Of a stretch of 64,000 nt of DNA, positions 39,374 to 48,696 are shown in pieces. The notes below the pieces were generated by a model, which did no database searches, was not told the DNA's origin, and saw nothing but the letters and a program-made list of their open reading frames with translations. The DNA comes from Ignavibacteria bacterium UBA2360 (GTDB taxonomy: Bacteria > Bacteroidota > Ignavibacteria > Tepidaquicellales > OLB5). The DNA lies in NCBI GenBank assembly GCA_002344125.1, contig DDTQ01000012.1:424763-488762 (forward strand), given 5' to 3'. A program made the position numbers and the translations under genes. Each line of letters opens with the position of its first letter. Within the stretch, counting starts at the first letter, position 1.

Positions 39374-39874
39374 CTATAGAACAAACATTACACCTGCAGT
39401 AAACAAAAACATTGCAGAGTTATCATAATGAATAGGACTTTTGATTTCTATAGATACGGCTTGTTTTTTGCTTAAGAAATAACCGGCTTTGAAACCAGCC
39501 ATGAAATCAAAACCCAACCCGCCCTGGCCAATCAAGAGTGCACCGCCTGCCCCAATTGATAATATTAAGTTATCCTCTTCAAACCCAACTGATGGAATGA
39601 AATCAAATGACACGACAACTTTTCTGCTGAATTCAGGTTTGTAAATATCGATGCCTGTATTTAAAGAAACAAAACTGTTTAGTCTGTTTGTTAAAGTTCC
39701 TGATACTACATAAGATGTTTCATCCTGTCTACTTTCTGATAGTGAAAAAACTTTATATATACCTGCTCCTGTATAAAGCAAAGTTTTATGAGAACGCCAT
39801 GAGTCTGTTATACTTTGTGAATTGAGAGATTCTAAGAGTAAGAATGCTAATAATATAACGGCTCTTGATCTCAA
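39374..39874 (-). CDS. Small predicted outer-membrane beta-barrel protein (paralog family)
   Basis: Signal peptide, alternating beta-strand pattern, C-terminal …TAGVMFVL; 4-nt overlap with the upstream paralog. Confidence 0.45.
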   Translation of the reverse strand: MRSRAVILLAFLLLESLNSQSITDSWRSHKTLLYTGAGIYKVFSLSESRQDETSYVVSGTLTNRLNSFVSLNTGIDIYKPEFSRKVVVSFDFIPSVGFEEDNLILSIGAGGALLIGQGGLGFDFMAGFKAGYFLSKKQAVSIEIKSPIHYDNSAMFLFTAGVMFVL

Positions 39875-40428
39875 AAAAACACCACTCCAATCGTCGCAAA
39901 CGGATTATGATAGAACTCATCATAATGCGATCTTCTTATCACCGGCATCTGAATGCCCGCTGAAAGCGAAACATACCTGTTGAATCTGTACAGGTAATTT
40001 ACACCCACAAAAAATGCTATAATTGCAGTATTGTCATTCGGGGTGAACATACTCAATCCCGTATTAACACTGATGCTGTGTTGCTTTATAACCAAAGGCA
40101 CTCCTGTAAATCCCACTGAAAAGTATGGCGCAGTATTTCCTATCTCATTATTCGTTTTCAAATTTCCGTAAGCCGCCCTCAAAAATATTCTTTTGTCATA
40201 AAGATTAACTTGACCGAAGATCCACCACCCATTATAAAAATATTTCTTCTCCTTTAGTGGTATGGCGGGACCGAATTCCATCCCAACCTGAAAGGGGAGA
40301 TCCGATAACGAATTATTCCCCTTAAAATCAGCGGACTTGTTGAAACTTACTTCACTTTCCTGTGAATACACAGAAGTAAACAGACCGGCGAGAATAAAAT
40401 ACAATAACCCGGCAATTCTTGTTTTCAT
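39871..40428 (-). CDS. Small predicted outer-membrane beta-barrel protein (paralog family)
   Basis: Signal peptide; ends …ATIGVVFF. Confidence 0.45.
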   Translation of the reverse strand: MKTRIAGLLYFILAGLFTSVYSQESEVSFNKSADFKGNNSLSDLPFQVGMEFGPAIPLKEKKYFYNGWWIFGQVNLYDKRIFLRAAYGNLKTNNEIGNTAPYFSVGFTGVPLVIKQHSISVNTGLSMFTPNDNTAIIAFFVGVNYLYRFNRYVSLSAGIQMPVIRRSHYDEFYHNPFATIGVVFF

Positions 40429-40468
40429 ACTATTTACTTTATAAGTACCATTTTCCTGGTTTCAATAT

Positions 40469-40520
40469 AATTCCCCTCTGGCGAGGGGTGTTCCGATTTA
40501 TCGGAACGGGGTGTGTTAAC
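40469..40520 (+). repeat. AATTCCCCTC…GAGGGGTG[inner hairpin]CGGGGTGTGTTAA element, copy 2
   Basis: See 35363..35413. Confidence 0.6.
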
Positions 40521-40579
40521 TCAGATTCTGTAAAAATACACACCGCTTGGTATGTATGATGCATCATAGCCATAGGTAA

Positions 40580-41176
40580 TCAATTTGTTAAAAATTGAAA
40601 ACCTGCTGTAATTAAAGTATTACGAAAGCCGCCAAACGGATATCGTAAGCTTAACGATATTCCAAAATACTCAGTTGTTGAGTACATGTAGTTCAGTGCC
40701 GCAAAGCCGGATAAACCTCCTCCAATACCCCCGGAATCGGACGAATTCCACACGCCAAATACTGCTGAATGTAATGCTAAACTGCTGTGTTTTGTCTTCA
40801 AGAATTTATATCTCAAACCTGCTGAAGAATACGAAGTATTGGTTTTTAATTTACTTTCAAAGAACTGACCATACTCTAACAATAAGAATAGTTTCTTTGA
40901 TGATAAATTAACACTGAAGTTTCCTATAATTCCCGGAGTCACAAGTTTCTGTTTCAGGTCATAGTTCAGTGCAAAACTAATCCCAAATCCAAACGGAAAA
41001 TTCCGAAGGTTGTTATCTGCCCCTGAATAATATGATTTAAGTCTCAAAGTACTGCTGAAATTAATATTAGTAAGCGGATTTAAATTGATTCTCTCCTGGC
41101 CAAAGGATTCTACTGCATTTAGAGAATAAATACTTATGAGGATGTATATATGATATTTTAAGGATTTAAGGATCAA
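40580..41176 (-). CDS. Small predicted outer-membrane beta-barrel protein (paralog of 59493..60008)
   Basis: Shared blocks LVTPGIIGNFSVNLS / SAGLRYKF / SLRYPFGGF…TAGFQFL. Confidence 0.5.
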   Translation of the reverse strand: MILKSLKYHIYILISIYSLNAVESFGQERINLNPLTNINFSSTLRLKSYYSGADNNLRNFPFGFGISFALNYDLKQKLVTPGIIGNFSVNLSSKKLFLLLEYGQFFESKLKTNTSYSSAGLRYKFLKTKHSSLALHSAVFGVWNSSDSGGIGGGLSGFAALNYMYSTTEYFGISLSLRYPFGGFRNTLITAGFQFLTN

Positions 41177-41431: not shown

Positions 41432-43276
41432 TTATTCCACTGTTACGCTTTTAGCCAGATTTCTCGGCTGATCAACATTACAGCCGCGCAGTACTGCTAA
41501 GTGATACGCAAGCATCTGCAGCGGTATCGTTGTAAGTATCGGTGAAAGCATTTCCAGCGTGTGCGGTATCCTTATCACGTAATCGGAATATTCATCAATA
41601 TGCCCGTCGGAATCAAAATCAGTGATAGTTATCACAACGCCTTTTCTTGCCTTTACTTCGCGGATATTTGAAATTACTTTTTCGTAAGTTGAATCCTTCG
41701 GCGCAATTACTATTACAGGCATGTTCTGGTCAATTAATGCGATCGGTCCGTGTTTCATCTCCGCTGCGGGGTAACCCTCAGCGTGGATGTACGAAATTTC
41801 TTTCAGCTTCAGTGCGCCTTCAAGCGCTACCGGGAAGTTATATCCTCTGCCCAGGTACAGCATGTGCTGACAGAACTTGAAGACTTTAGCAATTTCAAGT
41901 ATCTTATTGTTTAACGCAAGTATTTCTTTTATCTTCTCAGGTATCCTGAGCAGTTCGTCGGTGATTTCTTTTATCTCATGCGCCGGCAGTGAATTCCTGT
42001 ATTGCGCTATCATTAATGAAATTAACGCAAGTCCGGTTAACTGTGATGTAAACGCCTTTGTTGATGCAACACCAATTTCGGGTCCCGCGTGAGTGTAAAC
42101 ACCTGCGTGGGTTTCCCTTGCAATTGTGCTTCCAACAACGTTTACAATACCATATACATCAGCGCCCCGTGATTTAGCTTCCTTAAGCGCAGCAAGTGTA
42201 TCAGCGGTTTCACCGCTCTGGCTGATAACGAACATTATATCGTTGGGGTAAATTACCGGGTTGCGGTAACGGAACTCAGACGCGTATTCAACCTCAACGG
42301 GTATCTTGCACATCTGTTCTATCATATACTCGCCAACCAAACCGGCATGCCATGCCGTTCCGCAGGCGGAAATAATTATTCTGGGCGCGAATTTTAATTT
42401 ATCGGTAACGTTCATTAAGCCGCCAAGCTTAACCAGGCCGTTATCCTTTATTATTCTTCCGCGCATTGTGTTTGTTATTGAATCAGGCTGCTCGTTGATC
42501 TCCTTTAACATAAAGTGATCGTAGCCGCCTTTTTCTATCTCTTCAAGATCAAATGTGATTTCTTCAAGCTCGCGCTCAATGGTTTCATCGTGAATAGTTT
42601 TTATAACGAACTTATCACGGTTAACAATAACCATTTCGCCATCCATTAGATACAATACCTGGCGCGTATGCGGAACTATTGCCGCAGCATCTGAAGCTAT
42701 TATAAACTCATCATCACCAACGCCCAGTACAAGAGGTGATCCTTTTCTTGCCGCAATGATCTTATCGGTTTCGAACTTTGAAAGTACGCACATGCCATAA
42801 GTACCGTCAACTTCAGCAAGTGTAAGCTGTACAGCTTTTTCAAAATCCATTACATTCTTGTAATGAGAGCGTATTAAATGCACAAGGCACTCAGTATCCG
42901 TATCGGTCATGAACTGGTAACCTTCGCGCTCAAGCCTTGTTTTCAGTACATTATAGTTTTCTATGATACCGTTGTGTATCACAACAATTTCATTGCCATC
43001 ATCAAAGATAGGGTGCGCGTTGCGGTTGTTAGGTTCACCGTGTGTTGCCCATCTTGTATGCCCGAATCCTATATTGGCTGTATGATCATACCCGTTTGAG
43101 CCTAAAAGATTTTCAAGATCTGTGACCTTTCCCGCGGTTTTGCGAACCGCAATTTCATTATCAAACATCAGCGCAACCCCGGCAGAGTCGTATCCTCTGT
43201 ATTCAAGCTTCTTCAATCCGCTAAGGATTATAGGAAGTGCCTGTTTATTACCTAAATACGCAACTATTCCACACAT
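41432..43276 (-). CDS. glmS: Glutamine--fructose-6-phosphate aminotransferase
   Basis: MCGIVAY N-terminal nucleophile, two SIS domains, C-terminal …NLAKSVTVE. Confidence 0.95.
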   Translation of the reverse strand: MCGIVAYLGNKQALPIILSGLKKLEYRGYDSAGVALMFDNEIAVRKTAGKVTDLENLLGSNGYDHTANIGFGHTRWATHGEPNNRNAHPIFDDGNEIVVIHNGIIENYNVLKTRLEREGYQFMTDTDTECLVHLIRSHYKNVMDFEKAVQLTLAEVDGTYGMCVLSKFETDKIIAARKGSPLVLGVGDDEFIIASDAAAIVPHTRQVLYLMDGEMVIVNRDKFVIKTIHDETIERELEEITFDLEEIEKGGYDHFMLKEINEQPDSITNTMRGRIIKDNGLVKLGGLMNVTDKLKFAPRIIISACGTAWHAGLVGEYMIEQMCKIPVEVEYASEFRYRNPVIYPNDIMFVISQSGETADTLAALKEAKSRGADVYGIVNVVGSTIARETHAGVYTHAGPEIGVASTKAFTSQLTGLALISLMIAQYRNSLPAHEIKEITDELLRIPEKIKEILALNNKILEIAKVFKFCQHMLYLGRGYNFPVALEGALKLKEISYIHAEGYPAAEMKHGPIALIDQNMPVIVIAPKDSTYEKVISNIREVKARKGVVITITDFDSDGHIDEYSDYVIRIPHTLEMLSPILTTIPLQMLAYHLAVLRGCNVDQPRNLAKSVTVE

Positions 43277-43412: not shown

Positions 43413-44879
43413 TTAAATCCCAAGCAAATTTGAGCAATATTTTGCCCAGTTCAATAAAGGGGATAAGTAAAATCCCTGTAATATTGCCGTAAATAAAAGA
43501 ATTAACAATATAATAAGGGATATCGTTTCCGTATTTTGTTTATTTTCAGGCACTTCACCCCGGAAAATTAACGCAATAAACCGGTAAATTACGAATAGAA
43601 ATACCGCGCTTGAAAGCACGCCAACTGAGGTAAGCCATAAGTAAGGAGTATTAGTTAGTGTAAAGTAAAGCATCAACTTTCCTGTGAATCCGCCCGTTAA
43701 CGGAAAGCCCGCAGATGACAACAGAAAAAATATAAATGCCGAAAATAAAAATTTATCACTCCGGCCTTTGCCTTTAAGATCATCCTTTTGTGTGATTTCG
43801 TATTTTTCCTTAAACAGCTTCAGACAAATTGTTAAACCAAGCGTATTGAGGGCAAACAATACAGCATTGAAAATAAATGCGGCGATACCCTCATGCGAAG
43901 CTGAGATGAGACCTAATAACAAATATCCCGCGGATGATATTGAAATGAAAGTTACTATTTTTTTCAGGTCATACTGCCACAGTATAATGAAGTTACCTGC
44001 AAGAATCGAAAATGCCGCAATTATCACAAGCATTAATTGCCAGTTTATACCCTGAATGAAAATAAGCCCTTCACTTCCCGTCTGAAAAGTGCCGCTATCA
44101 TGAAGTATTGTAAAAATAAATCTGGCCGCCGCAAACAGCGAAGCCAGTAAATTGATAAGAATAAACTGAAGTAAGTGTTCTTTCTTTACTGAATTACTGA
44201 ATGCCGCGAAGTTCAGGTTCAACGGTGCGAGCAGGGCGTTATAAAATATTCCCGCAAGTACCATAATAAAGCCAACAAGAAAAATCTGTATGTTAAACGG
44301 ATTACCTGAAATGAATTTCGCTATTGCTGAATAATCACCAGACCCCGATACCCCATATATCAATGTTGCGCCATACAGCATTATGGCGGCGAAGACTCCG
44401 TTGAATATGTAATATTTAATTGCGGATTTGAGTTCATATCTGAAAATGAGCAGTAGGGGAATAACCATCACCTGCATTGAAACGAACAACACAAATATAT
44501 TCGATGCGCTCACACTTAGCAGCGCGCCTATGAATGATACAGATGCAAGATTGAGGTCACCCTTATTACTTTTGCCGCGATAGAACACCAATGCTATTAC
44601 AACCATGGATGTAGTTAATATCACGCGCGCTCCGTAACTAAAATGATCTGCCGAGAATGCTCCGCTGAAAAGATGTTGCGGCGCGAAGTACGCCTGCGCG
44701 TAACTGGATATAGCTGCTGCAATCACACCACCGGAAAAAACATAGTACGCGATCTTTTCAGTCAGTTGTTTACCGCTTGAAATATTTGCGGAGCTTAATA
44801 CATTAAGAATAATTACCGCAAGAGAGAGTGTTATTTCAGGAAGAAAATTGAATAAAATATTAACTGTTTCCTGGTTCAA
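43413..44879 (-). CDS. NuoN/MrpD-family proton-translocating antiporter-like membrane subunit
   Basis: 488 aa, about 14 TM; N-terminus …FNFLPEITLSLAVIILNVL typical of NuoN. Confidence 0.75.
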   Translation of the reverse strand: MNQETVNILFNFLPEITLSLAVIILNVLSSANISSGKQLTEKIAYYVFSGGVIAAAISSYAQAYFAPQHLFSGAFSADHFSYGARVILTTSMVVIALVFYRGKSNKGDLNLASVSFIGALLSVSASNIFVLFVSMQVMVIPLLLIFRYELKSAIKYYIFNGVFAAIMLYGATLIYGVSGSGDYSAIAKFISGNPFNIQIFLVGFIMVLAGIFYNALLAPLNLNFAAFSNSVKKEHLLQFILINLLASLFAAARFIFTILHDSGTFQTGSEGLIFIQGINWQLMLVIIAAFSILAGNFIILWQYDLKKIVTFISISSAGYLLLGLISASHEGIAAFIFNAVLFALNTLGLTICLKLFKEKYEITQKDDLKGKGRSDKFLFSAFIFFLLSSAGFPLTGGFTGKLMLYFTLTNTPYLWLTSVGVLSSAVFLFVIYRFIALIFRGEVPENKQNTETISLIILLILLFTAILQGFYLSPLLNWAKYCSNLLGI

Positions 44880-44997
44880 TTATTTTATGTTTTTTGTACA
44901 TAATTCCCGCGAAAGCGGGAATCTAATTGTGCATTTTGTTCTCATTACGAAAGGGAGCAAATCATAACATATAGATTGCAATGCTAAATAATACTTT

Positions 44998-45167
44998 TGT
45001 ACCGCCAAACGACTGCGGTGGCAGTCAGGGACTTTCTCACCGTTACAATGTTACCATTACTAGAATCTAACTTAGCGCGCCTGACTGGAAACTGCAAAGC
45101 AGTTAACAGTCCTGACTTGCAACTGCGTAGCAGTTGAAAGTTCTACCAATTCCGCTGTAATCCTATT
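44998..45167 (-). repeat. tRNA-Leu-derived unit 1 (not a functional tRNA): D-arm to 3-prime end retained, hairpins inserted in the D- and T-loops, extra 31-nt subrepeat
   Basis: 44998-45080 is identical to 45168-45250. T-loop TTCGAGT is replaced by …GACTGCCACCGCAGTC…; the anticodon stem is disrupted. Confidence 0.8.
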
Positions 45168-45306
45168 TGTACCGCCAAACGACTGCGGTGGCAGTCAGGG
45201 ACTTTCTCACCGTTACAATGTTACCATTACTAGAATCTAACTTAGCGCGCTTGACTTGCAACTGCGTAGCAGTTGAAAGTTCTACCAATTCCGCTGTAAT
45301 CCTATT
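45168..45306 (-). repeat. tRNA-Leu-derived unit 2
   Basis: GGAATTGGTAGA[ACTTTCAACTGCTACGCAGTTGCAAGTCAA]GCGCGC…AACGGT[GAGAAAGTCCCTGACTGCCACCGCAGT]CGTTTGGCGGTACA. Confidence 0.8.
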
Positions 45307-45308
45307 TG

Positions 45309-45392
45309 TACCGCCAAACGGACTCGAACCGTTACAATGTTGCCATTACTAGATTTTGAGTCTAGCGCGTCTACCAATTCCGCCATGGCGGC
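45309..45392 (-). tRNA. tRNA-Leu (anticodon CAA), class II with long variable arm
   Basis: Manual fold: acceptor GCCGCCA/TGGCGGT, D-arm GCGGAATTGGTAGACGC, anticodon arm CTAGA-CTCAAAA-TCTAG, variable arm AATG-GCAA-CATT, T-arm AACGG-TTCGAGT-CCGTT. CCA is not encoded. Confidence 0.85.
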
Positions 45393-45423
45393 AAGGCACA
45401 AAAACTATTAAATGAACTTAAAC

Positions 45424-45490
45424 CTAACTTAGAGCGCTTGACTTGCAACTGCGAAGCAGTTAACAGTACTAACAATTCTGCATAAGCCGC
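45424..45490 (-). repeat. Partial tRNA-derived unit (5-prime half only, with D-loop hairpin)
   Basis: GCAGAATTGTTAGTA[CTGTTAACTGCTTCGCAGTTGCAAGTCAA]GCGCTCTAAGTTAGG; lies between the GIY-YIG stop and the tRNA. Confidence 0.7.
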
Positions 45491-45497
45491 AAGCTTA

Positions 45498-45746
45498 CTA
45501 TTTGCCTATCAAACTTCTCAAAAACTTTCTTCCGGCTGATAACTTCAATTCTCTTTCACGCCGCATCGCGGCTGATTTATCAGGCTGCTCTTCGTTATAT
45601 ATCATCCTGTACGGCCTGTATGGTTTTGTTGATTCAACATATCCATCACAGTTCTGCTTAAATCTTCTGTCAAGATTATCCGTGTGACCCACATAAATCC
45701 TGTCTCTGGTTTCAGAATACAGGCAATAAACGAAGAATTTTCGCAT
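45498..45746 (-). CDS. Small GIY-YIG nuclease family protein
   Basis: 82 aa; FVYCLYS…RIYVGHTDNLDRR…, downstream Arg/Glu (RRERELK). Confidence 0.85.
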   Translation of the reverse strand: MRKFFVYCLYSETRDRIYVGHTDNLDRRFKQNCDGYVESTKPYRPYRMIYNEEQPDKSAAMRRERELKLSAGRKFLRSLIGK

Positions 45747-45781
45747 TTCCGCTTATCTTAAAGAACACAATAATAATAAAA

Positions 45782-46201
45782 TTAGAAAATACTTAAAATG
45801 ATATAAAATACCACAACTAAACCTGTGCTTATACCTATAAATGCGGTTTGATTCTCATTATACAGCTTCCTGAAGACAAGCGACACTATATTAACAGGCT
45901 CTATTATAACAGGCCGTATGATTCGTGTAATATTCAGCTCTGAAACTGAAATCGATTTACCGGACCTGTCTAGATAACCCGCAATTTTCTTAAATGCAGT
46001 GCCAAGCGGTACTGTTATGTGTTTCTGTATGCTGCCGGAGATCGTGATGTAAAAACTCTGCTTTGAAACATTCAACCGGATACTCATTGCAGCATTGCGT
46101 ACCCGTGTAGAAATTTTCAATAGCGCATAAATGAAAATTATAAAATAAAACATTGCTGCCAACACAACAAACCATGTAGTATTTATGAACAGATCATTCA
46201 A
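45782..46201 (-). CDS. Hypothetical membrane protein (N- and C-terminal TM); start uncertain (TTG at 46201 or ATG at 46153)
   Basis: The track ORF 45782..46345 overlaps nuoK-like by 150 nt. Only the part downstream of the nuoK-like stop is plausible. Confidence 0.3.
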   Translation of the reverse strand: MNDLFINTTWFVVLAAMFYFIIFIYALLKISTRVRNAAMSIRLNVSKQSFYITISGSIQKHITVPLGTAFKKIAGYLDRSGKSISVSELNITRIIRPVIIEPVNIVSLVFRKLYNENQTAFIGISTGLVVVFYIILSIF

Positions 46202-46499
46202 TTGATATATTTTCCCGTATATTTTGTGTGGAAAATTTCTTTTGGTGCAGTGTAAACAGCAAAATTCCCCCGGCAATATTAAGCAGGCATATGAAAGAAA
46301 CAAGATAAAGCAAAATTTGTCCTTCCGCATTAAAAGCATCCACACCCGCTATTGCCGCAATATTAATTAGTGATGCTGAAAACATCATTGTTATGCCTGT
46401 AATTATTCTAATTGAATTCTTTGAACTGAGTAGTACATATAAACCCGCTGCAAATACAATTGCGCTAACAAAAATATAAAAATTTATTCCCTCTGACAT
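46194..46499 (-). CDS. NuoK/MrpC-like small membrane subunit
   Basis: 101 aa, 3 TM; …AGLYVLLSSKNSIRIITGITMMFSASLINIAA… resembles NuoK. Confidence 0.75.
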   Translation of the reverse strand: MSEGINFYIFVSAIVFAAGLYVLLSSKNSIRIITGITMMFSASLINIAAIAGVDAFNAEGQILLYLVSFICLLNIAGGILLFTLHQKKFSTQNIRENISIE

Positions 46500-46981
46500 T
46501 AACTCTTTACTCCTTCACCAGTTCGGATACTTCCCGCAGCGCTTATGATAACGGAAGCTAACAATGCTAGTACCATTAATACCGGGAGGTATTTGGCGAA
46601 AATCAGGTAAAATGAATTAACATCATAATTTACAGCAAACACTTTCCATTTCGCGCTGCCGCCCAGACCCGCCAACACTGCTGCCAACGCACTGATCATT
46701 ATTACCGGTAGTAAATTCACCCGCGGCTGAGCTGTTTCTGTGTGTTCAATGTATTTGCTGAGCTTTGTGTATAATAAATTCCATAAGCTAAAGAATAAGA
46801 GCAGTGCCAGTATCAATAATGCTGAATAAAGCTGTGAGTTTAGTATCAACATTAATCCACTTAGACCCGCCGCAAAATAAGCGAAGTATTTCAACGAATT
46901 CTTGACTGAATACGAAAACGCTATCAGCAGCGAAGCTGATAGAGTAAGTAAAGCTGCTACATAGAATATAAATTCCTTCAA
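46499..46981 (-). CDS. NuoJ-like membrane subunit (divergent)
   Basis: 160 aa; N-terminal FIFYVAALLTLSASLL and C-terminal …LIFAKYLPVLMVLALLASVIISAAG resemble NuoJ. 1-nt overlap with the nuoK-like gene. Confidence 0.55.
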   Translation of the reverse strand: MKEFIFYVAALLTLSASLLIAFSYSVKNSLKYFAYFAAGLSGLMLILNSQLYSALLILALLLFFSLWNLLYTKLSKYIEHTETAQPRVNLLPVIMISALAAVLAGLGGSAKWKVFAVNYDVNSFYLIFAKYLPVLMVLALLASVIISAAGSIRTGEGVKS

Positions 46982-46987
46982 AATAAT

Positions 46988-47614
46988 TTATTTCAGTTCA
47001 ATTTCTTTTAGCACATAATATGTGCGGGTCAGCTGTGGGGGATTCGTACGGTTAGCGCCCCATTTTACTATCCCAACATCTTTCTTAAACCACATTTCAT
47101 AAGAAAATGTAAATCCGTCTGTCATGGATACATATATACAATCATTGTAAGTACCTGCTTCCGTAACTGCCGTTTCGTTTTCGCTGTTAACGTAACCCGT
47201 GAAGATGCCGAATTTCCAGTCATACCCTGTTCTCATATCACCAGCTTTTGGTACTATGGTACCACTTGCGCCCATATAATCTTTAATTTCAATCTCACCG
47301 CTGTTGCGAATTTTCACTGTACGCTCTTCATTGGATTGAGTTAAGTAGGGGAATGTTGATACTTTAGACTGCATCCCGTCCTCAACCTTTTTCAGGTCTT
47401 TTACTTGTACCGTATATAATACGGTTTCTTCTCTGGGAGCTTCGTTGATATATACCCATTTATTCCCCTCTGATATTGGGAAGTATTCATTAAAATTTAC
47501 AGAGTTTGTTTTTTTATCCTTTACACTTGTTTTTGTATCACCGGAATTACAGCTAAACGCGCTCCCCGCCAATATGATAATTACTAATAATGTATATTTA
47601 CTAAAACTTCTCAT
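46988..47614 (-). CDS. Hypothetical lipoprotein
   Basis: Lipobox AGSAFSC; 208 aa; 4-nt overlap with the upstream gene. Confidence 0.5.
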   Translation of the reverse strand: MRSFSKYTLLVIIILAGSAFSCNSGDTKTSVKDKKTNSVNFNEYFPISEGNKWVYINEAPREETVLYTVQVKDLKKVEDGMQSKVSTFPYLTQSNEERTVKIRNSGEIEIKDYMGASGTIVPKAGDMRTGYDWKFGIFTGYVNSENETAVTEAGTYNDCIYVSMTDGFTFSYEMWFKKDVGIVKWGANRTNPPQLTRTYYVLKEIELK

Positions 47615-48267
47615 TTCTTCCCGCCGGACTTTCTGTTCGTGCCGCTTCGCTTTGACCGGGTATTTGCCGAGCCATGTTTTCTTACGGGTTTTTTCTTTGG
47701 TGTGGCCTTAACCTCCGGTTCTGTAACCTGCTGCTCTACTACATTCTCTTCCAGTGCTTTAGGTAACTGTATTTCTTCTTCTATAATAACTTCCTCTGTA
47801 ATAACTTCCTCTGTAACAACTTCCTCTGTAGCAACTTCCTCTGTAATAACTTCCTCTGTAATAACTTCTGTAACTTTCAGGTCTTTAGTTAGAATTTTAT
47901 CGCTTCCTGTTTTAATGATCTCTTTAATAATTATATCTTCTTCAATTACATTGCCTTTGGGTATATAAGCAAATTTTTTCCCGCTTACGAAGTTTATCAT
48001 CTTGAAAAGCAGTGGTGAGAAAGTTATTGCTGTAAGCACAGCTATCAAAAGCGCAGCATTTAAACCATAATAAATATCAAACTTCAAAACATATGTAAAA
48101 GTTAATATCTGTAAAGAAATGAATGAGAGAACTAAAACTCCTGCAAAAAAGGGATTAGTTAATTTATTGAATTTTAAGCGGAAATTACTGCTCAGAATCC
48201 CCGGCACTAATATTATCAACGCCGCAAGGAAAGGCAAAGCCTGCAATATTGTAATTTGCTCACTCAT
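47611..48267 (-). CDS. Membrane protein with an acidic (V/I)TEEV pentapeptide repeat and a basic tail
   Basis: 3 N-terminal TM; VTEVITEEVITEEVATEEVVTEEVITEEVIIEEE encoded by 15-nt repeats at 47786..47872. Confidence 0.5.
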   Translation of the reverse strand: MSEQITILQALPFLAALIILVPGILSSNFRLKFNKLTNPFFAGVLVLSFISLQILTFTYVLKFDIYYGLNAALLIAVLTAITFSPLLFKMINFVSGKKFAYIPKGNVIEEDIIIKEIIKTGSDKILTKDLKVTEVITEEVITEEVATEEVVTEEVITEEVIIEEEIQLPKALEENVVEQQVTEPEVKATPKKKPVRKHGSANTRSKRSGTNRKSGGKK

Positions 48268-48311: not shown

Positions 48312-48340
48312 AAAAAAGACAGGTTAATAACCTGTCTTTT
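48312..48340 (-). terminator. Rho-independent terminator after trxA
   Basis: GACAGGTTA/TAACCTGTC stem flanked by an A6 and a T4 run. Confidence 0.7.
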
Positions 48341-48366: not shown

Positions 48367-48696
48367 TTACGCCGGCTGAAGCTGAGCATCTAATTTCTGC
48401 GCAAGCGCCTGCTTGGGTACTGCGCCAATTATCTGGTCAACAATTTTGCCGTCTCTGAAAATTAATATTGTCGGAATACTTCTTATTCCGTATGTTGTTG
48501 AAATATTTGGATTGTTATCAACATCAACTTTGCCAACTTTTGCTTTGCCCTGGTATTCACCTGCAAGCTCTTCAACAAAAGGCGCTATCATTTTACAGGG
48601 TCCGCACCATACAGCCCAGAAATCTACCAATACCGGTACATCTGATTTAATTACTTCCTGGTCAAAATTAGCGTCTGTGAATTCAATTGGATGCAT
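48367..48696 (-). CDS. trxA: Thioredoxin
   Basis: WAVWCGPCK active site; 109 aa. Confidence 0.95.
   Translation of the reverse strand: MHPIEFTDANFDQEVIKSDVPVLVDFWAVWCGPCKMIAPFVEELAGEYQGKAKVGKVDVDNNPNISTTYGIRSIPTILIFRDGKIVDQIIGAVPKQALAQKLDAQLQPA

What the first reader, a model, noticed from the sequence alone, without database searches (positions are those of the whole stretch)
43413..48267. Orphan NuoJ/NuoK/NuoN-like membrane module without L, M or any peripheral-arm genes, split by the GIY-YIG/tRNA insertion
The minus-strand order is: a membrane protein with an acidic TEEV repeat; a lipoprotein; a NuoJ-like gene; a NuoK-like gene; a 2-TM hypothetical; then the GIY-YIG gene and tRNA array; then a NuoN/MrpD-like gene. 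The first four genes overlap by 1-4 nt, consistent with translational coupling. Canonical complex I has J-K-L-M-N preceded by A-I, and Mrp has A-G; neither pattern is present. A J+K+one-antiporter-subunit set is the minimal ion-translocating unit seen in Mbh/Mrp-type complexes. This could therefore be a stand-alone ion-translocation module with novel partners. The apparent insertion of a nuclease gene and tRNA array between K and N is itself unusual.
Basis: partly seen in the sequence, partly recalled or inferred. Interest (0 to 1): 0.55.

Follow-up and report, generated by a model that had tools for sequence, protein, structure and literature searches.

The report
Stripped-down relic of complex I operon
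These six membrane-protein genes are what remains of an Ignavibacteria respiratory complex I operon after its catalytic genes were deleted; the leftovers have been kept by selection but have lost the residues needed to pump ions.

Summary
NuoK- and NuoN-like identities are confirmed. NuoJ is confirmed only by profile-profile comparison.

The cluster is not an orphan module with novel partners. It is collinear with a canonical ignavibacterial nuo operon: nuoA-B-C-X-D-H-I-J-K-L-tRNALeu(CAA)-M-N, where X is an unannotated lipoprotein.
- The window's lipoprotein is an X homolog.
- The "2-TM hypothetical" occupies the nuoL slot, and its C-terminus aligns with the NuoL C-terminus.
- The tRNA-Leu is an ancestral resident of the operon, not an insertion.

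Two intermediate loci link the forms: A'-X-J-K-full-length L'-tRNA-N-glmS, with the canonical upstream flank.

The redox module, NuoH and NuoM are gone. In the window lineage NuoN' has lost the TM5 Glu, TM7 Lys and TM8 Lys. NuoK' has lost both Glu, in 0 of 17 relatives. NuoJ' has a deletion in TM3.

Even so, dN/dS is 0.1-0.4 and the ORFs are intact in more than 25 relatives. The most likely reading is a non-pumping relic subcomplex kept for a structural or X-linked role. The stand-alone ion translocator idea is weakly supported. The "tRNA array" is one tRNA plus two pseudo-tRNA repeats. The GIY-YIG gene is a recurrent mobile guest.

The parts
47611..48267 (-). g1: a 3-TM membrane protein of about 95 aa, followed by a disordered acidic (TEEV repeat) then basic tail. 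It occupies the nuoA position of the operon.
   Evidence: It is the first gene of the cluster in all relatives and overlaps X by 4 nt. The gene at the same position in the intermediate locus L064 is NuoA-derived (hhalign Prob 82.5, E 1e-5). g1 itself is not statistically linked to NuoA (E 0.08-0.17). Its tail is low-complexity and variable among relatives.
46988..47614 (-). g2 = X: a lipoprotein homologous to the extra gene between nuoC and nuoD of ignavibacterial nuo operons.
   Evidence: The lipobox Cys22 is invariant, and mean column identity is 72%. The window protein is 35-40% identical to X in canonical operons L031 and L032 (E 1e-48 to 8e-52). The AF2 model has pLDDT 83.9 and is all-beta. 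Its best PDB matches are Bacteroidales lipoproteins of unknown function, 4fvs and 3fzx (YmcC-like), followed by LolA/LolB-like folds.
46499..46981 (-). g3 = NuoJ-derived subunit (J').
   Evidence: There is no Pfam hit. The family profile hits NdhG/NuoJ 6hum_G at E 0.004. hhalign against ignavibacterial NuoJ gives Prob 97.8 and E 7e-13 over the full length, and shows a 4-residue deletion at the TM3 YVGG site. Less diverged cluster members hit canonical NuoJ directly by BLAST (L037, 6e-18).
46194..46499 (-). g4 = NuoK-derived subunit (K'), lacking both membrane glutamates.
   Evidence: PF00420 scores 28.4 bits. The profile hits NdhE/NuoK chains at E 6e-8 to 3e-6 over the full length. The Glu36 and Glu72 equivalents are T and N here. 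Neither Glu is present in any of 17 reduced-cluster homologs, whereas all canonical sequences have both.
45782..46201 (-). g5: a TM - helical region - TM protein, and a probable remnant of the NuoL C-terminus (end of the lateral helix plus TM16).
   Evidence: It lies between K' and tRNA-Leu, exactly where nuoL lies in canonical operons and where a full-length L' lies in intermediate operons. Its last 50 aa or so align to the extreme C-terminus of NuoL: hhalign E 6e-5, 5.5e-4 against full-length NuoL with controls at 0.02-0.5, and 8.8e-5 against the L063 L'.
45498..45746 (-). An 82-aa GIY-YIG gene, a recurrent mobile guest next to the tRNA.
   Evidence: PF01541 matches at 1.4e-13. The gene is present on either side of the tRNA in most relatives. 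It is absent in L002, L015, L017, L018, L030 and L063, occurs twice in L064, and also occurs inside the canonical operon L032.
45308..45392 (-). tRNA-Leu(CAA), an ancestral resident of the operon at the nuoL|nuoM junction.
   Evidence: ARAGORN and Rfam (58.9 bits) both detect it. It is at the same position in all 24 reduced clusters scanned and in all 6 canonical operons scanned.
44996..45304 (-). Two tandem 170-nt pseudo-tRNA-Leu units interrupted by a small hairpin element (AACTGCnnnnGCAGTT).
   Evidence: Direct repeats were found. Neither ARAGORN nor Rfam calls them as tRNAs. There are 3 units in L034, 1 in L029 and none in L030.
43413..44879 (-). g6 = NuoN-derived antiporter-like subunit (N') with a degenerate proton relay.
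   Evidence: PF00361 matches at 7e-19, and NuoN models are the best NCBIfam hits but fall far below their cutoffs. The family profile hits NuoN/NdhB chains at E 5e-45. The AF2 model has pLDDT 82.5, keeps the broken TM7 and TM12, and its top 15 Foldseek hits are all N-type chains with TM 0.78-0.83. The TM5 Glu is replaced by Gln, and the TM7 Lys and TM8 Lys are lost. The TM12 Lys is kept. The family is sister to the canonical ignavibacterial NuoN.
48314..48340 (-). Terminator-like hairpin (12-bp stem plus T run) between trxA and g1. It marks the start of a separate transcription unit.

Best explanation
**Origin.** The cluster is the reduced descendant of an Ignavibacteria-type 11-subunit nuo operon, nuoA-B-C-X-D-H-I-J-K-L-tRNALeu(CAA)-M-N. 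X is a lineage-specific lipoprotein gene. The genes for the quinone-reducing module (B, C, D, I), NuoH and NuoM were deleted, most likely in situ. NuoL was later cut down to its C-terminal anchor, which is g5.

**What survives.** The remaining genes are g1 (in the nuoA slot), X, J', K', the L-tail and N'. From published complex I structures (my knowledge), their canonical counterparts are neighbours in the complex: the A/J/K/N block, with TM16 of NuoL docking near N.

**Likely assembly (inferred).** These proteins probably still assemble as a small inner-membrane subcomplex, with X on the periplasmic face.

**Likely activity.** Redox-driven pumping is impossible because there is no redox module. 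In the window's lineage the canonical proton relay is also broken:
- N' has Gln in place of the TM5 Glu and has lost the TM7 and TM8 Lys.
- K' lacks both Glu.
- J' has a deletion at the TM3 pi-bulge site.

The subcomplex is therefore most likely not an ion translocator. It is probably retained for a structural, scaffolding or X-linked function.

**Shown versus inferred.** Homology, collinearity, residue loss and purifying selection are shown. Assembly and present function are inferred.
For: **Collinearity and shared markers**
- X homologs sit between nuoC and nuoD in canonical operons L031, L032, L044, L055, L062 and L065.
- tRNA-Leu(CAA) lies between nuoL and nuoM in all six of those operons.
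- The same tRNA lies between g5 (or L') and N' in all 24 reduced clusters scanned.

**Intermediate loci L063 and L064**
- They carry a NuoA-like gene (hhalign E 1e-5 for L064), then X, J, K, a 578-585-aa NuoL homolog (E 1e-30), the tRNA, N and glmS.
- Their upstream flank (TonB receptor / BNR_2 / PSII_BNR) matches canonical operons.
- Their downstream glmS flank matches the window.

**Homology of the window's genes**
- g3 is NuoJ-derived: hhalign Prob 97.8, E 7e-13.
- g4 is NuoK-derived.
- g6 is NuoN-derived by sequence, model and tree, and is sister to ignavibacterial NuoN.
- g5 aligns with the NuoL C-terminus.

**Residue decay follows phylogeny**
- Basal members keep the TM5 Glu and TM7 Lys of N'. 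The crown clade, which includes the window, lost them.
- None keep the TM8 Lys.
- 0 of 17 K' sequences keep either Glu.

**Evolutionary rates**
- In canonical operons identity is K 87 > J 73 > N 68 > X 50%.
- In reduced clusters with GlmS at 95% identity, the values are K 53, J 44, N 49 and X 57%.
- So constraint on J/K/N is relaxed while X is unchanged.

**Still real genes**
- dN/dS is 0.1-0.4, against 0.015-0.02 for DnaE and GlmS.
- ORFs are intact despite near-saturated dS.
Against: - Assembly of the six proteins was not tested, because no multimer prediction was available.
- g1 is not statistically linked to NuoA (E 0.08-0.17).
- The g5-NuoL link rests on about 50 residues with moderate hhalign probability (60-65%), plus position.
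- Some polar residues remain conserved in N': the TM12 Lys/Arg in all members, K306/K307, D78 and R253. Basal members keep the TM5 Glu-TM7 Lys pair. Residual transport cannot be excluded.
- dN/dS near 0.1 for J', N' and X is strong constraint for a mere scaffold.
- X is absent from two basal clusters (L017, L020), which argues against X being the sole reason for retention.
- I could not determine whether these genomes carry another complex I. The contig-length comparison found no co-occurrence, but that is weak evidence.
Confidence: 0.68

Rival explanations
1. **Stand-alone ion-translocation module.** Under this reading J', K', N' and their small partners form a minimal cation/proton conduit or secondary antiporter that works without any redox module. 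Mrp and the membrane-arm-only partial nuo operons of actinomycetes are proposed to work this way.
For: - The N-type antiporter fold is preserved, including the discontinuous TM7 and TM12.
- The TM12 Lys/Arg is conserved in all members, and K306/K307 are nearly invariant.
- Basal members keep the TM5 Glu-TM7 Lys pair.
- Purifying selection is clear, with dN/dS 0.1-0.4.
- A partial NDH-1 (nuoA, H, J-N) is discussed as a functional unit in marine actinomycetes (PMC4018334).
Against: - The central TM8 Lys is absent in every member. In the window lineage the TM5 Glu and TM7 Lys are also gone.
- Neither of the two NuoK glutamates is present in any of 17 homologs.
- J' has a deletion at the TM3 site.
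- There are no Mrp E/F/G/B-type Pfam hits.
- J/K/N evolve much faster than their canonical counterparts.
Confidence: 0.15
2. **Alternative or auxiliary subunits.** Under this reading the proteins plug into another respiratory complex encoded elsewhere in the genome, for example a 14-subunit complex I like the second set in Ignavibacterium album. They would replace or extend its J/K/N block. Cyanobacterial NdhD/NdhF paralogs work this way to create NDH-1 variants.
For: - Ignavibacterium album carries two NDH-1 gene sets, of 11 and 14 subunits (PMC3362086), so a second complex may exist in these genomes.
- The retained set corresponds to a contiguous block of the membrane arm.
- The genes are under purifying selection.
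Against: - No second complex I could be examined in any genome that carries the cluster.
- A K subunit lacking both glutamates and an N subunit lacking the TM8 Lys would be expected to uncouple a canonical complex. This expectation rests on established mutagenesis knowledge of NuoK and NuoN, not on a test here.
- The rapid divergence of J'/K'/N' is unlike subunits that must fit a conserved partner: 27-54% identity among genomes whose GlmS is 84-96% identical.
Confidence: 0.1
3. **Functionless relic kept open for the tRNA.** Under this reading the reading frames persist only because transcription and translation must continue through them to express the embedded, probably single-copy tRNA-Leu(CAA). 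Nonsense mutations would be avoided to prevent polarity. Toxic misfolding of the expressed membrane proteins would also be selected against.
For: - The tRNA is fixed inside the operon in every canonical and reduced version.
- A terminator-like hairpin precedes g1, which suggests that g1-g5 and the tRNA share one transcription unit.
- The catalytic residues are gone.
- Evolution is fast.
Against: - dN/dS of about 0.1 for X, J' and N' is far below neutrality.
- N' lies downstream of the tRNA and is conserved all the same.
- X keeps long invariant motifs such as GIVKWGANRTNPP.
- NuoL could be cut to a fragment and five or six genes could be deleted without loss of the tRNA. Read-through therefore does not require these particular ORFs.
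Confidence: 0.07

Closest known systems
Canonical 11-subunit NDH-1 (nuoABCDHIJKLMN, lacking nuoEFG) of Chlorobi and Ignavibacteria. The closest form is the ignavibacterial variant with an extra lipoprotein gene X and an embedded tRNA-Leu.
   Same: - Gene order is collinear: A-slot, X, J, K, L-slot, tRNA-Leu(CAA), N.
- N' is sister to the NuoN of this operon type.
- X is 35-45% identical between the two forms.
- J' and K' are homologous over their full length.
   Different: - NuoB, C, D, H, I and M are absent.
- NuoL is reduced to about 139 aa.
- The canonical charged residues of N, K and J are lost.
- J/K/N evolve several-fold faster.
- The A-slot protein carries a long disordered acidic/basic tail.
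Partial NDH-1 operons (nuoA, H, J, K, L, M, N) of marine actinomycetes such as Salinispora and sponge-associated Streptomyces.
   Same: Both encode a membrane-arm-only subset of nuo genes with no peripheral arm (PMC4018334).
   Different: - The actinomycete operons keep NuoH, full-length NuoL and NuoM.
- They are extra copies alongside a complete operon.
- They are proposed to be functional pumps.
- I did not examine their residues.
- The cluster here lacks H and M, has only an L fragment, has lost the relay residues, and appears to replace the canonical operon rather than supplement it.
Mrp (MrpA-G) antiporter and the Mrp-like module of Mbh/Mbs.
   Same: - Both contain a NuoK-like subunit (MrpC) and a NuoN/M-like subunit (MrpD) as the core.
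- The g6 model also matches MrpD chains, with TM about 0.80.
   Different: - N-type complex I chains outrank MrpD both by sequence and by structure.
- There are no MrpA, B, E, F or G equivalents by Pfam.
- Phylogeny places N' inside NuoN.
- The conserved Lys/Glu residues that define active Mrp subunits are missing.
The ND2 (P_P-b) assembly module of mitochondrial complex I: ND2, ND3, ND4L and ND6. This comparison rests on my own knowledge of the assembly literature.
   Same: The subunit set is the same: N, A, K and J equivalents. That set forms a stable, independently assembling sub-block of the membrane arm.
   Different: The mitochondrial module is a transient assembly intermediate of a complete enzyme. 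It is not a free-standing end product, and it keeps all functional residues.

Membership tests
NuoN / ND2-type antiporter-like subunit (for g6) | Proton_antipo_M domain and a 14-TM fold with discontinuous TM7 and TM12. N-type chains should be the closest relatives. | tested here: met
   PF00361 matches at 7e-19. The family profile hits NuoN 8e9g_N at 5e-45. The AF2 model shows broken TM7 and TM12. The top 15 Foldseek hits are all N-type, with TM 0.78-0.83. The NJ tree places the family inside NuoN, sister to ignavibacterial NuoN.
NuoN / ND2-type antiporter-like subunit (for g6) | A conserved proton-relay set: TM5 Glu, TM7 Lys, TM8 Lys and TM12 Lys/Glu. | tested here: not met
   In the window the residues are TM5 Gln, TM7 Asn/Tyr region, TM8 Leu and TM12 Lys. 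Across 16 family members, TM5 Glu is kept in 3, TM7 Lys in 2, TM8 Lys in 0, and TM12 Lys/Arg in 16. The protein also scores 142 bits against a 333-bit curated cutoff for TIGR01770.
NuoK / ND4L (for g4) | A protein of about 100 aa with 3 TM segments that matches Oxidored_q2 over its full length. | tested here: met
   PF00420 scores 28.4 bits against a 26.1-bit cutoff. The profile hits NdhE/NuoK chains at E 6e-8 to 3e-6 over residues 6-95. Three TM segments are predicted.
NuoK / ND4L (for g4) | Two membrane-embedded glutamates, Glu36 and Glu72 in E. coli numbering. | tested here: not met
   The window has Thr and Asn at these positions. Neither Glu is present in any of 17 reduced-cluster homologs.
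NuoJ / ND6 (for g3) | Sequence match to Oxidored_q3 / NuoJ over the full length. | tested here: met
   No single-sequence Pfam or NCBIfam hit was found. The family profile hits 6hum_G at E 0.004. hhalign against ignavibacterial NuoJ gives Prob 97.8 and E 7e-13 over residues 2-155, with controls at E 0.17-0.57. The less diverged L037 homolog hits NuoJ by BLAST at 6e-18.
NuoJ / ND6 (for g3) | The conserved TM3 segment (Y-x-G-G) that carries the pi-bulge. | tested here: not met
   The alignments show a 4-residue deletion exactly at the canonical LIYVGGI site. The basal member L037 still has the segment.
NuoL (for g5) | A full antiporter-like domain (Proton_antipo_N plus Proton_antipo_M) followed by a lateral helix and TM16. 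| tested here: not met
   g5 is about 139 aa with 2 TM segments and no Pfam hit. Only its last 50 residues or so align to the NuoL C-terminus (E 6e-5 to 5.5e-4). It is therefore a remnant, not a member.
NuoA / ND3 (for g1) | A 3-TM protein matching Oxidored_q4, with a conserved TM1-2 loop and the TM2 FD.E motif. | tested here: inconclusive
   g1 has 3 TM segments and is first in the operon, but hhalign against NuoA gives only E 0.08-0.17. The gene at the same position in L064 is NuoA-like (Prob 82.5, E 1e-5). The loop motif is absent from g1.
Respiratory complex I / NDH-1 as an enzyme | Presence of the quinone-reduction module (NuoB, C, D, I) and NuoH. | tested here: not met
   None of these genes is in the cluster or anywhere in the 64-kb window (tblastn with ignavibacterial queries). 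They are also absent from all reduced clusters in relatives. The rest of the genome could not be inspected.
Mrp-type multisubunit cation/proton antiporter | MrpA-G subunit set, including the MrpB, E, F and G families. | tested here: not met
   No MnhB, MNHE, MrpF or PhaG Pfam hits were found for any of the six proteins at E <= 1. MrpC NCBIfam models score weaker than NuoK models for g4. NuoN ranks above MrpD for g6.

The most novel reading that the evidence does not exclude
After losing its redox module, the leftover A'/J'/K'/L-tail/N' membrane block may have been repurposed as an inner-membrane platform for the periplasmic lipoprotein X. X has a YmcC/LolA-like open beta-barrel fold and may bind a lipid or quinone-like ligand.

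This would be a new, non-bioenergetic function for complex-I antiporter-like subunits. It would also imply that X is a previously unrecognised accessory subunit of ignavibacterial complex I that contacts the J/K/N region.
Probability: 0.25. Interest if true: 0.7.

Novelty: new variant of a known kind. Interest (0 to 1): 0.5.

Why it matters
Complex I is usually discussed as having been built up from modules: an Mrp-like antiporter plus a hydrogenase-like module.

This locus shows the reverse process caught in stages within one bacterial class.
- A full operon.
- An intermediate with A', X, J, K, L and N.
- A further-reduced form in which L is a stub and the proton-relay residues have decayed.

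All the stages are anchored by the same embedded tRNA and the same flanks.

It is a natural experiment on three questions:
- Which parts of the membrane arm can persist without the enzyme.
- Which residues are maintained only for pumping.
- What else such subunits might be used for.

It also flags two unannotated features of ignavibacterial nuo operons that annotation pipelines miss: the lipoprotein gene X and an in-operon tRNA-Leu. Finally, it warns against reading "NuoN/NuoK" annotations in these MAGs as evidence of respiratory capacity.

Tried and rejected
**Searches that found nothing informative**
- Single-sequence Pfam and NCBIfam searches returned nothing for g1, g2, g3 and g5.
- PDB profile searches for g5 and g2 returned only noise, such as ATP synthase b and a Fab.

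**Homology tests that were not significant**
- g1 against NuoA by hhalign, with 13- and 19-sequence profiles and through the intermediates A63 and A64, was not significant. I therefore do not claim homology.
- The g5 N-terminus against NuoL, NuoM or NuoA gave only a weak hit to NuoA TM1 (E 0.022), which I regard as chance.

**Co-occurrence of canonical and reduced operons**
- The metagenome scan with the X family returned no contig carrying both.
- Comparing contig lengths between canonical-type and reduced-type X hits found no shared contig.
- This is weak negative evidence only.

I judged a single-sequence run unlikely to be decisive and did not run it.

**Readings I rejected**
- Mrp-type: there are no E/F/G/B subunits, and N-type complex I hits outrank MrpD.
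- Recent insertion of the tRNA: the tRNA is ancestral to the operon.
- Pseudogenes: ORFs are intact and dN/dS is 0.1-0.4 at near-saturated dS.

**Literature**
- Searches found no description of this cluster.

Full report
**1. What is in the sequence**

The window comes from an Ignavibacteria MAG. g6 is 100% identical to a protein named "IAE93_13525 [Ignavibacteria bacterium]".

The following lie on the minus strand between trxA (48367-48696) and glmS (41432-43276):

| Feature | Coordinates | Size |
|---|---|---|
| g1 | 47611-48267 | 218 aa |
| g2 | 46988-47614 | 208 aa |
| g3 | 46499-46981 | 160 aa |
| g4 | 46194-46499 | 101 aa |
| g5 | 45782-46201 | about 139 aa (TTG start) |
| GIY-YIG gene | 45498-45746 | 82 aa |
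| tRNA-Leu(CAA) | 45308-45392 | - |
| g6 | 43413-44879 | 488 aa |

- Overlaps are 4 nt (g1/g2), 1 nt (g3/g4) and 8 nt (g4/g5). g2 and g3 are 6 nt apart.
- A strong terminator-like hairpin at 48340-48314 separates trxA from g1.
- ARAGORN and Rfam each find only one tRNA.
Both copies are interrupted by a small hairpin element.

**2. Family assignments**

- g6 matches PF00361 at 7e-19. NuoN models are its best NCBIfam hits, but at 142 bits against a 333-bit cutoff.
- g4 just passes Oxidored_q2, at 28.4 against 26.1 bits.
- g1, g2, g3 and g5 hit nothing.

With alignments of relatives the picture sharpens:
- The g6 profile hits NuoN/NdhB chains at E 5e-45.
- The g4 profile hits NdhE/NuoK at 6e-8.
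- The g3 profile has NdhG/NuoJ as its best PDB hit, at E 0.004.
- Against ignavibacterial NuoJ, g3 gives hhalign Prob 97.8 and E 7e-13 over the full length. Controls give E 0.17-0.57.

An AF2 model of g6 has pLDDT 82.5 and pTM 0.87, and keeps the discontinuous TM7 and TM12. Its top 15 Foldseek hits are all N-type chains with TM 0.78-0.83, and MrpD ranks lower. The J/K/N labels are therefore right.

**3. Conservation in relatives**

The arrangement dnaE-trxA-g1-g2-g3-g4-g5-(GIY-YIG)-tRNA-Leu-g6-glmS recurs in more than 25 Ignavibacteria contigs.
- tRNA-Leu(CAA) is at the same place in every reduced cluster scanned.
- The GIY-YIG gene is optional. It lies on either side of the tRNA, is absent from several loci and is duplicated in one.
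- The flanking genes are very conserved: GlmS 84-99% and TrxA 79-100% identical.
- The cluster genes diverge fast: g6 27-85%, g3 25-83% and g1 24-62%.
- Against the two closest relatives, dN/dS is 0.09-0.40 for g1-g6 and 0.013-0.019 for DnaE and GlmS.
- dS is near saturation, so these ratios are approximate.
- These are real genes under purifying selection, but the selection is clearly weaker than on housekeeping genes.

**4. The key lead: g2 and the canonical operon**

g2 is the best conserved of the six, with 72% mean column identity. Its family has 159-199 members, and every source name given is Ignavibacteria or Chlorobi.

The more distant members (35-45% identical) sit inside canonical nuo operons: nuoA-B-C-[X]-D-H-I-J-K-L-M-N (L031, L032, L044, L055, L062, L065).

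Every one of those operons also has a tRNA-Leu(CAA) gene between nuoL and nuoM.

The window's order g1-X-J'-K'-g5-tRNA-N' is therefore collinear with A-(B,C)-X-(D,H,I)-J-K-L-tRNA-(M)-N. The tRNA is an inherited landmark, not an insertion that split an orphan module.

The same small GIY-YIG gene also occurs next to the tRNA in the canonical operon L032. It is an ordinary mobile guest in these genomes.

**5. Intermediates**

L063 and L064 have this layout:
- Upstream: TonB receptor / BNR_2 / PSII_BNR genes, the same flank as canonical operons L032, L065, L031 and L062.
- A 141-142-aa 3-TM gene.
- X, J and K.
- A 578-585-aa NuoL homolog. It hits canonical NuoL by BLAST at 1e-30, and its C-terminus ...VIFYFIFRSM compares with the canonical ...VIFYFIFRTM.
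- tRNA-Leu(CAA).
- N.
- glmS, the same downstream flank as the window.

The first gene of L064 is NuoA-like over its full length, with hhalign Prob 82.5 and E 1e-5. Controls give E 0.11-0.85.

These loci show that the reduced cluster occupies the canonical nuo locus. They also show that B, C, D, H, I and M were removed while X was kept.

g5 sits exactly where L' sits. Its last 50 residues or so (consensus ...SLxxRKxYTxxxTAVI...VVFYFILTIF) align to the extreme C-terminus of NuoL:
- E 6e-5.
- E 5.5e-4 against full-length NuoL, with other subunits at 0.02-0.5.
- E 8.8e-5 against the L063 L'.

I conclude that g5 is probably the stub of NuoL, comprising the end of the lateral helix plus TM16.

g1 is in the nuoA slot and has 3 TM segments, but it is not statistically linked to NuoA. 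That homology remains an inference from position.

**6. Phylogeny and decay**

In an NJ tree the reduced-cluster N proteins form one clade, sister to the NuoN of the X-type ignavibacterial operon. The slowest member (L037) is 40% identical to that NuoN and 24-27% identical to other NuoN sequences.

Residue mapping for N':
- All reduced-cluster N proteins lack the TM8 Lys, and the PFH histidine is replaced by Asn.
- Basal members (L037, L002, L018, L033, L017, L020) keep the TM5 Glu and TM7 Lys.
- The crown clade, including the window, has lost both. The window has Gln136 and no Lys.
- The TM12 Lys/Arg is kept by all.

Other subunits:
- In K', neither of the two membrane Glu residues survives in any of 17 homologs, including the intermediates.
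- In J', a 4-residue deletion removes the TM3 YVGG site in most members.

Evolutionary rates invert:

| Comparison | K | J | N | X |
|---|---|---|---|---|
| Canonical L031 vs L044 | 87% | 73% | 68% | 50% |
| Reduced L063 vs L064 (GlmS 95%) | 53% | 44% | 49% | 57% |

Constraint on J/K/N was therefore relaxed after the enzyme was dismantled. Constraint on X was not.

**7. The X protein**

The AF2 model has pLDDT 83.9 and is a 12-strand all-beta fold. Its best PDB neighbours are Bacteroidales lipoproteins of unknown function: 4fvs at E 7.5e-7, and 3fzx ("YmcC-like fold") at 3e-6. Weaker matches are to LolA, LolB and nitrobindin barrels.

Its function is unknown. It is a candidate periplasmic accessory subunit of ignavibacterial complex I. 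Its co-retention with J/K/N hints that it contacts that region, which is an inference.

**8. Interpretation**

The best explanation is a relic of the complex I membrane arm.

From published complex I structures (my knowledge), the canonical counterparts of the retained proteins are neighbours in the complex: the A/J/K/N block, with TM16 of NuoL. Continued assembly into a small subcomplex is therefore plausible, but I did not test it.

Redox-coupled pumping is excluded because there is no redox module, and the canonical relay is broken in this lineage. Persistent purifying selection argues for some retained role, either structural or linked to X.

Rival explanations:
- A residual stand-alone transporter (0.15).
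- Auxiliary subunits for another complex encoded elsewhere (0.10). I. album has two NDH-1 sets (PMC3362086).
- A functionless relic kept open only for expression of the embedded tRNA (0.07). This is contradicted by dN/dS near 0.1 and by the conservation of N' downstream of the tRNA.

**9. Comparison with known systems, and novelty**

Membrane-arm-only partial nuo operons (nuoA, H, J-N) are known in marine actinomycetes (PMC4018334). Mrp and Mbh use K-like and N-like subunits.

This cluster differs in several ways:
- It has lost H and M, and most of L.
- It has lost the defining charged residues.
- It carries a lineage-specific lipoprotein.
- It apparently replaces the canonical operon rather than adding to it.

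I found no description of it in the searchable literature. I class it as a new variant of a known kind. Its interest is moderate, and lies in it being a staged natural example of complex I deconstruction.

**10. Limits**

- I could not see the rest of any genome that carries the cluster.
- I had no multimer prediction.
- dS is near saturation, so dN/dS values are approximate.
- The tree is a simple NJ tree without support values.
- The g1-NuoA link is positional only, and the g5-NuoL link is moderate.

Noticed in passing
L031 16489-16575; L032 18047-18129; L044 16607-16692; L055 9794-9878; L062 16526-16610; L065 16538-16623; window 45308-45392: A tRNA-Leu(CAA) gene is embedded between nuoL and nuoM in every canonical ignavibacterial 11-subunit nuo operon examined. 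It is inherited at the same junction by all reduced clusters. A tRNA fixed inside a respiratory operon is unusual in itself.
   Followed up: partly
L031 10001-10624; L032 10001-10639; L044 9962-10603; L055 3333-3947; L062 10001-10594; L065 10001-10651; window 46988-47614: An unannotated lipoprotein gene of about 205 aa (X) lies between nuoC and nuoD in ignavibacterial nuo operons and is translationally coupled to nuoD. It has no Pfam family. The predicted fold is like the YmcC/LolA-type barrels 4fvs and 3fzx. It is a candidate lineage-specific accessory subunit of complex I.
   Followed up: partly
window 44996-45304 (also 45424-45507): Two tandem 170-nt pseudo-tRNA-Leu units keep the 5' D-arm, variable/T-arm and 3' pieces of the real tRNA. 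Both are interrupted by a hairpin element, AACTGCnnnnGCAGTT, which has 4 copies, all within 45090-45461. There are three units in L034, one in L029 and none in L030, so the expansion is recent.
   Followed up: partly
window 45498-45746; L032 18090-18422; L064 13285-13542 and 13632-13901; L053 2440-2685: A small GIY-YIG gene of 81-90 aa recurs immediately beside the operon's tRNA-Leu. It can lie on either side of the tRNA, sometimes in two copies, and in both canonical and reduced operons. Close relatives lack it. It behaves like a tRNA-proximal mobile gene.
   Followed up: partly
window 47611-47968 (C-terminal half of g1): The g1 tail is a disordered acidic stretch followed by a basic end (KKKPVRK...GGKK). 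The TEEV repeat is specific to the window's lineage. All relatives have an E/K-rich tail of variable length (86-301 aa total) with a basic terminus, and some basal members lack the tail.
   Followed up: partly
L063 5517-9462; L064 6840-9469; L031 4474-8368; L032 5210-8338; L062 5771-8355; L065 3921-8219: A conserved block of T9SS-cargo genes (PSII_BNR / BNR_2 with Por_Secre_tail), plus TonB-dependent receptors in several loci, lies immediately upstream of nuoA in canonical and intermediate operons. In the window-type clusters it has been replaced by dnaE-trxA.
   Followed up: no
window 39871-41176: Two adjacent minus-strand ORFs of 185 and 198 aa carry signal peptides and have beta-strand-rich, aromatic-terminal sequences. 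They may be small outer-membrane beta-barrel proteins. They lie just downstream of glmS and were not examined.
   Followed up: no
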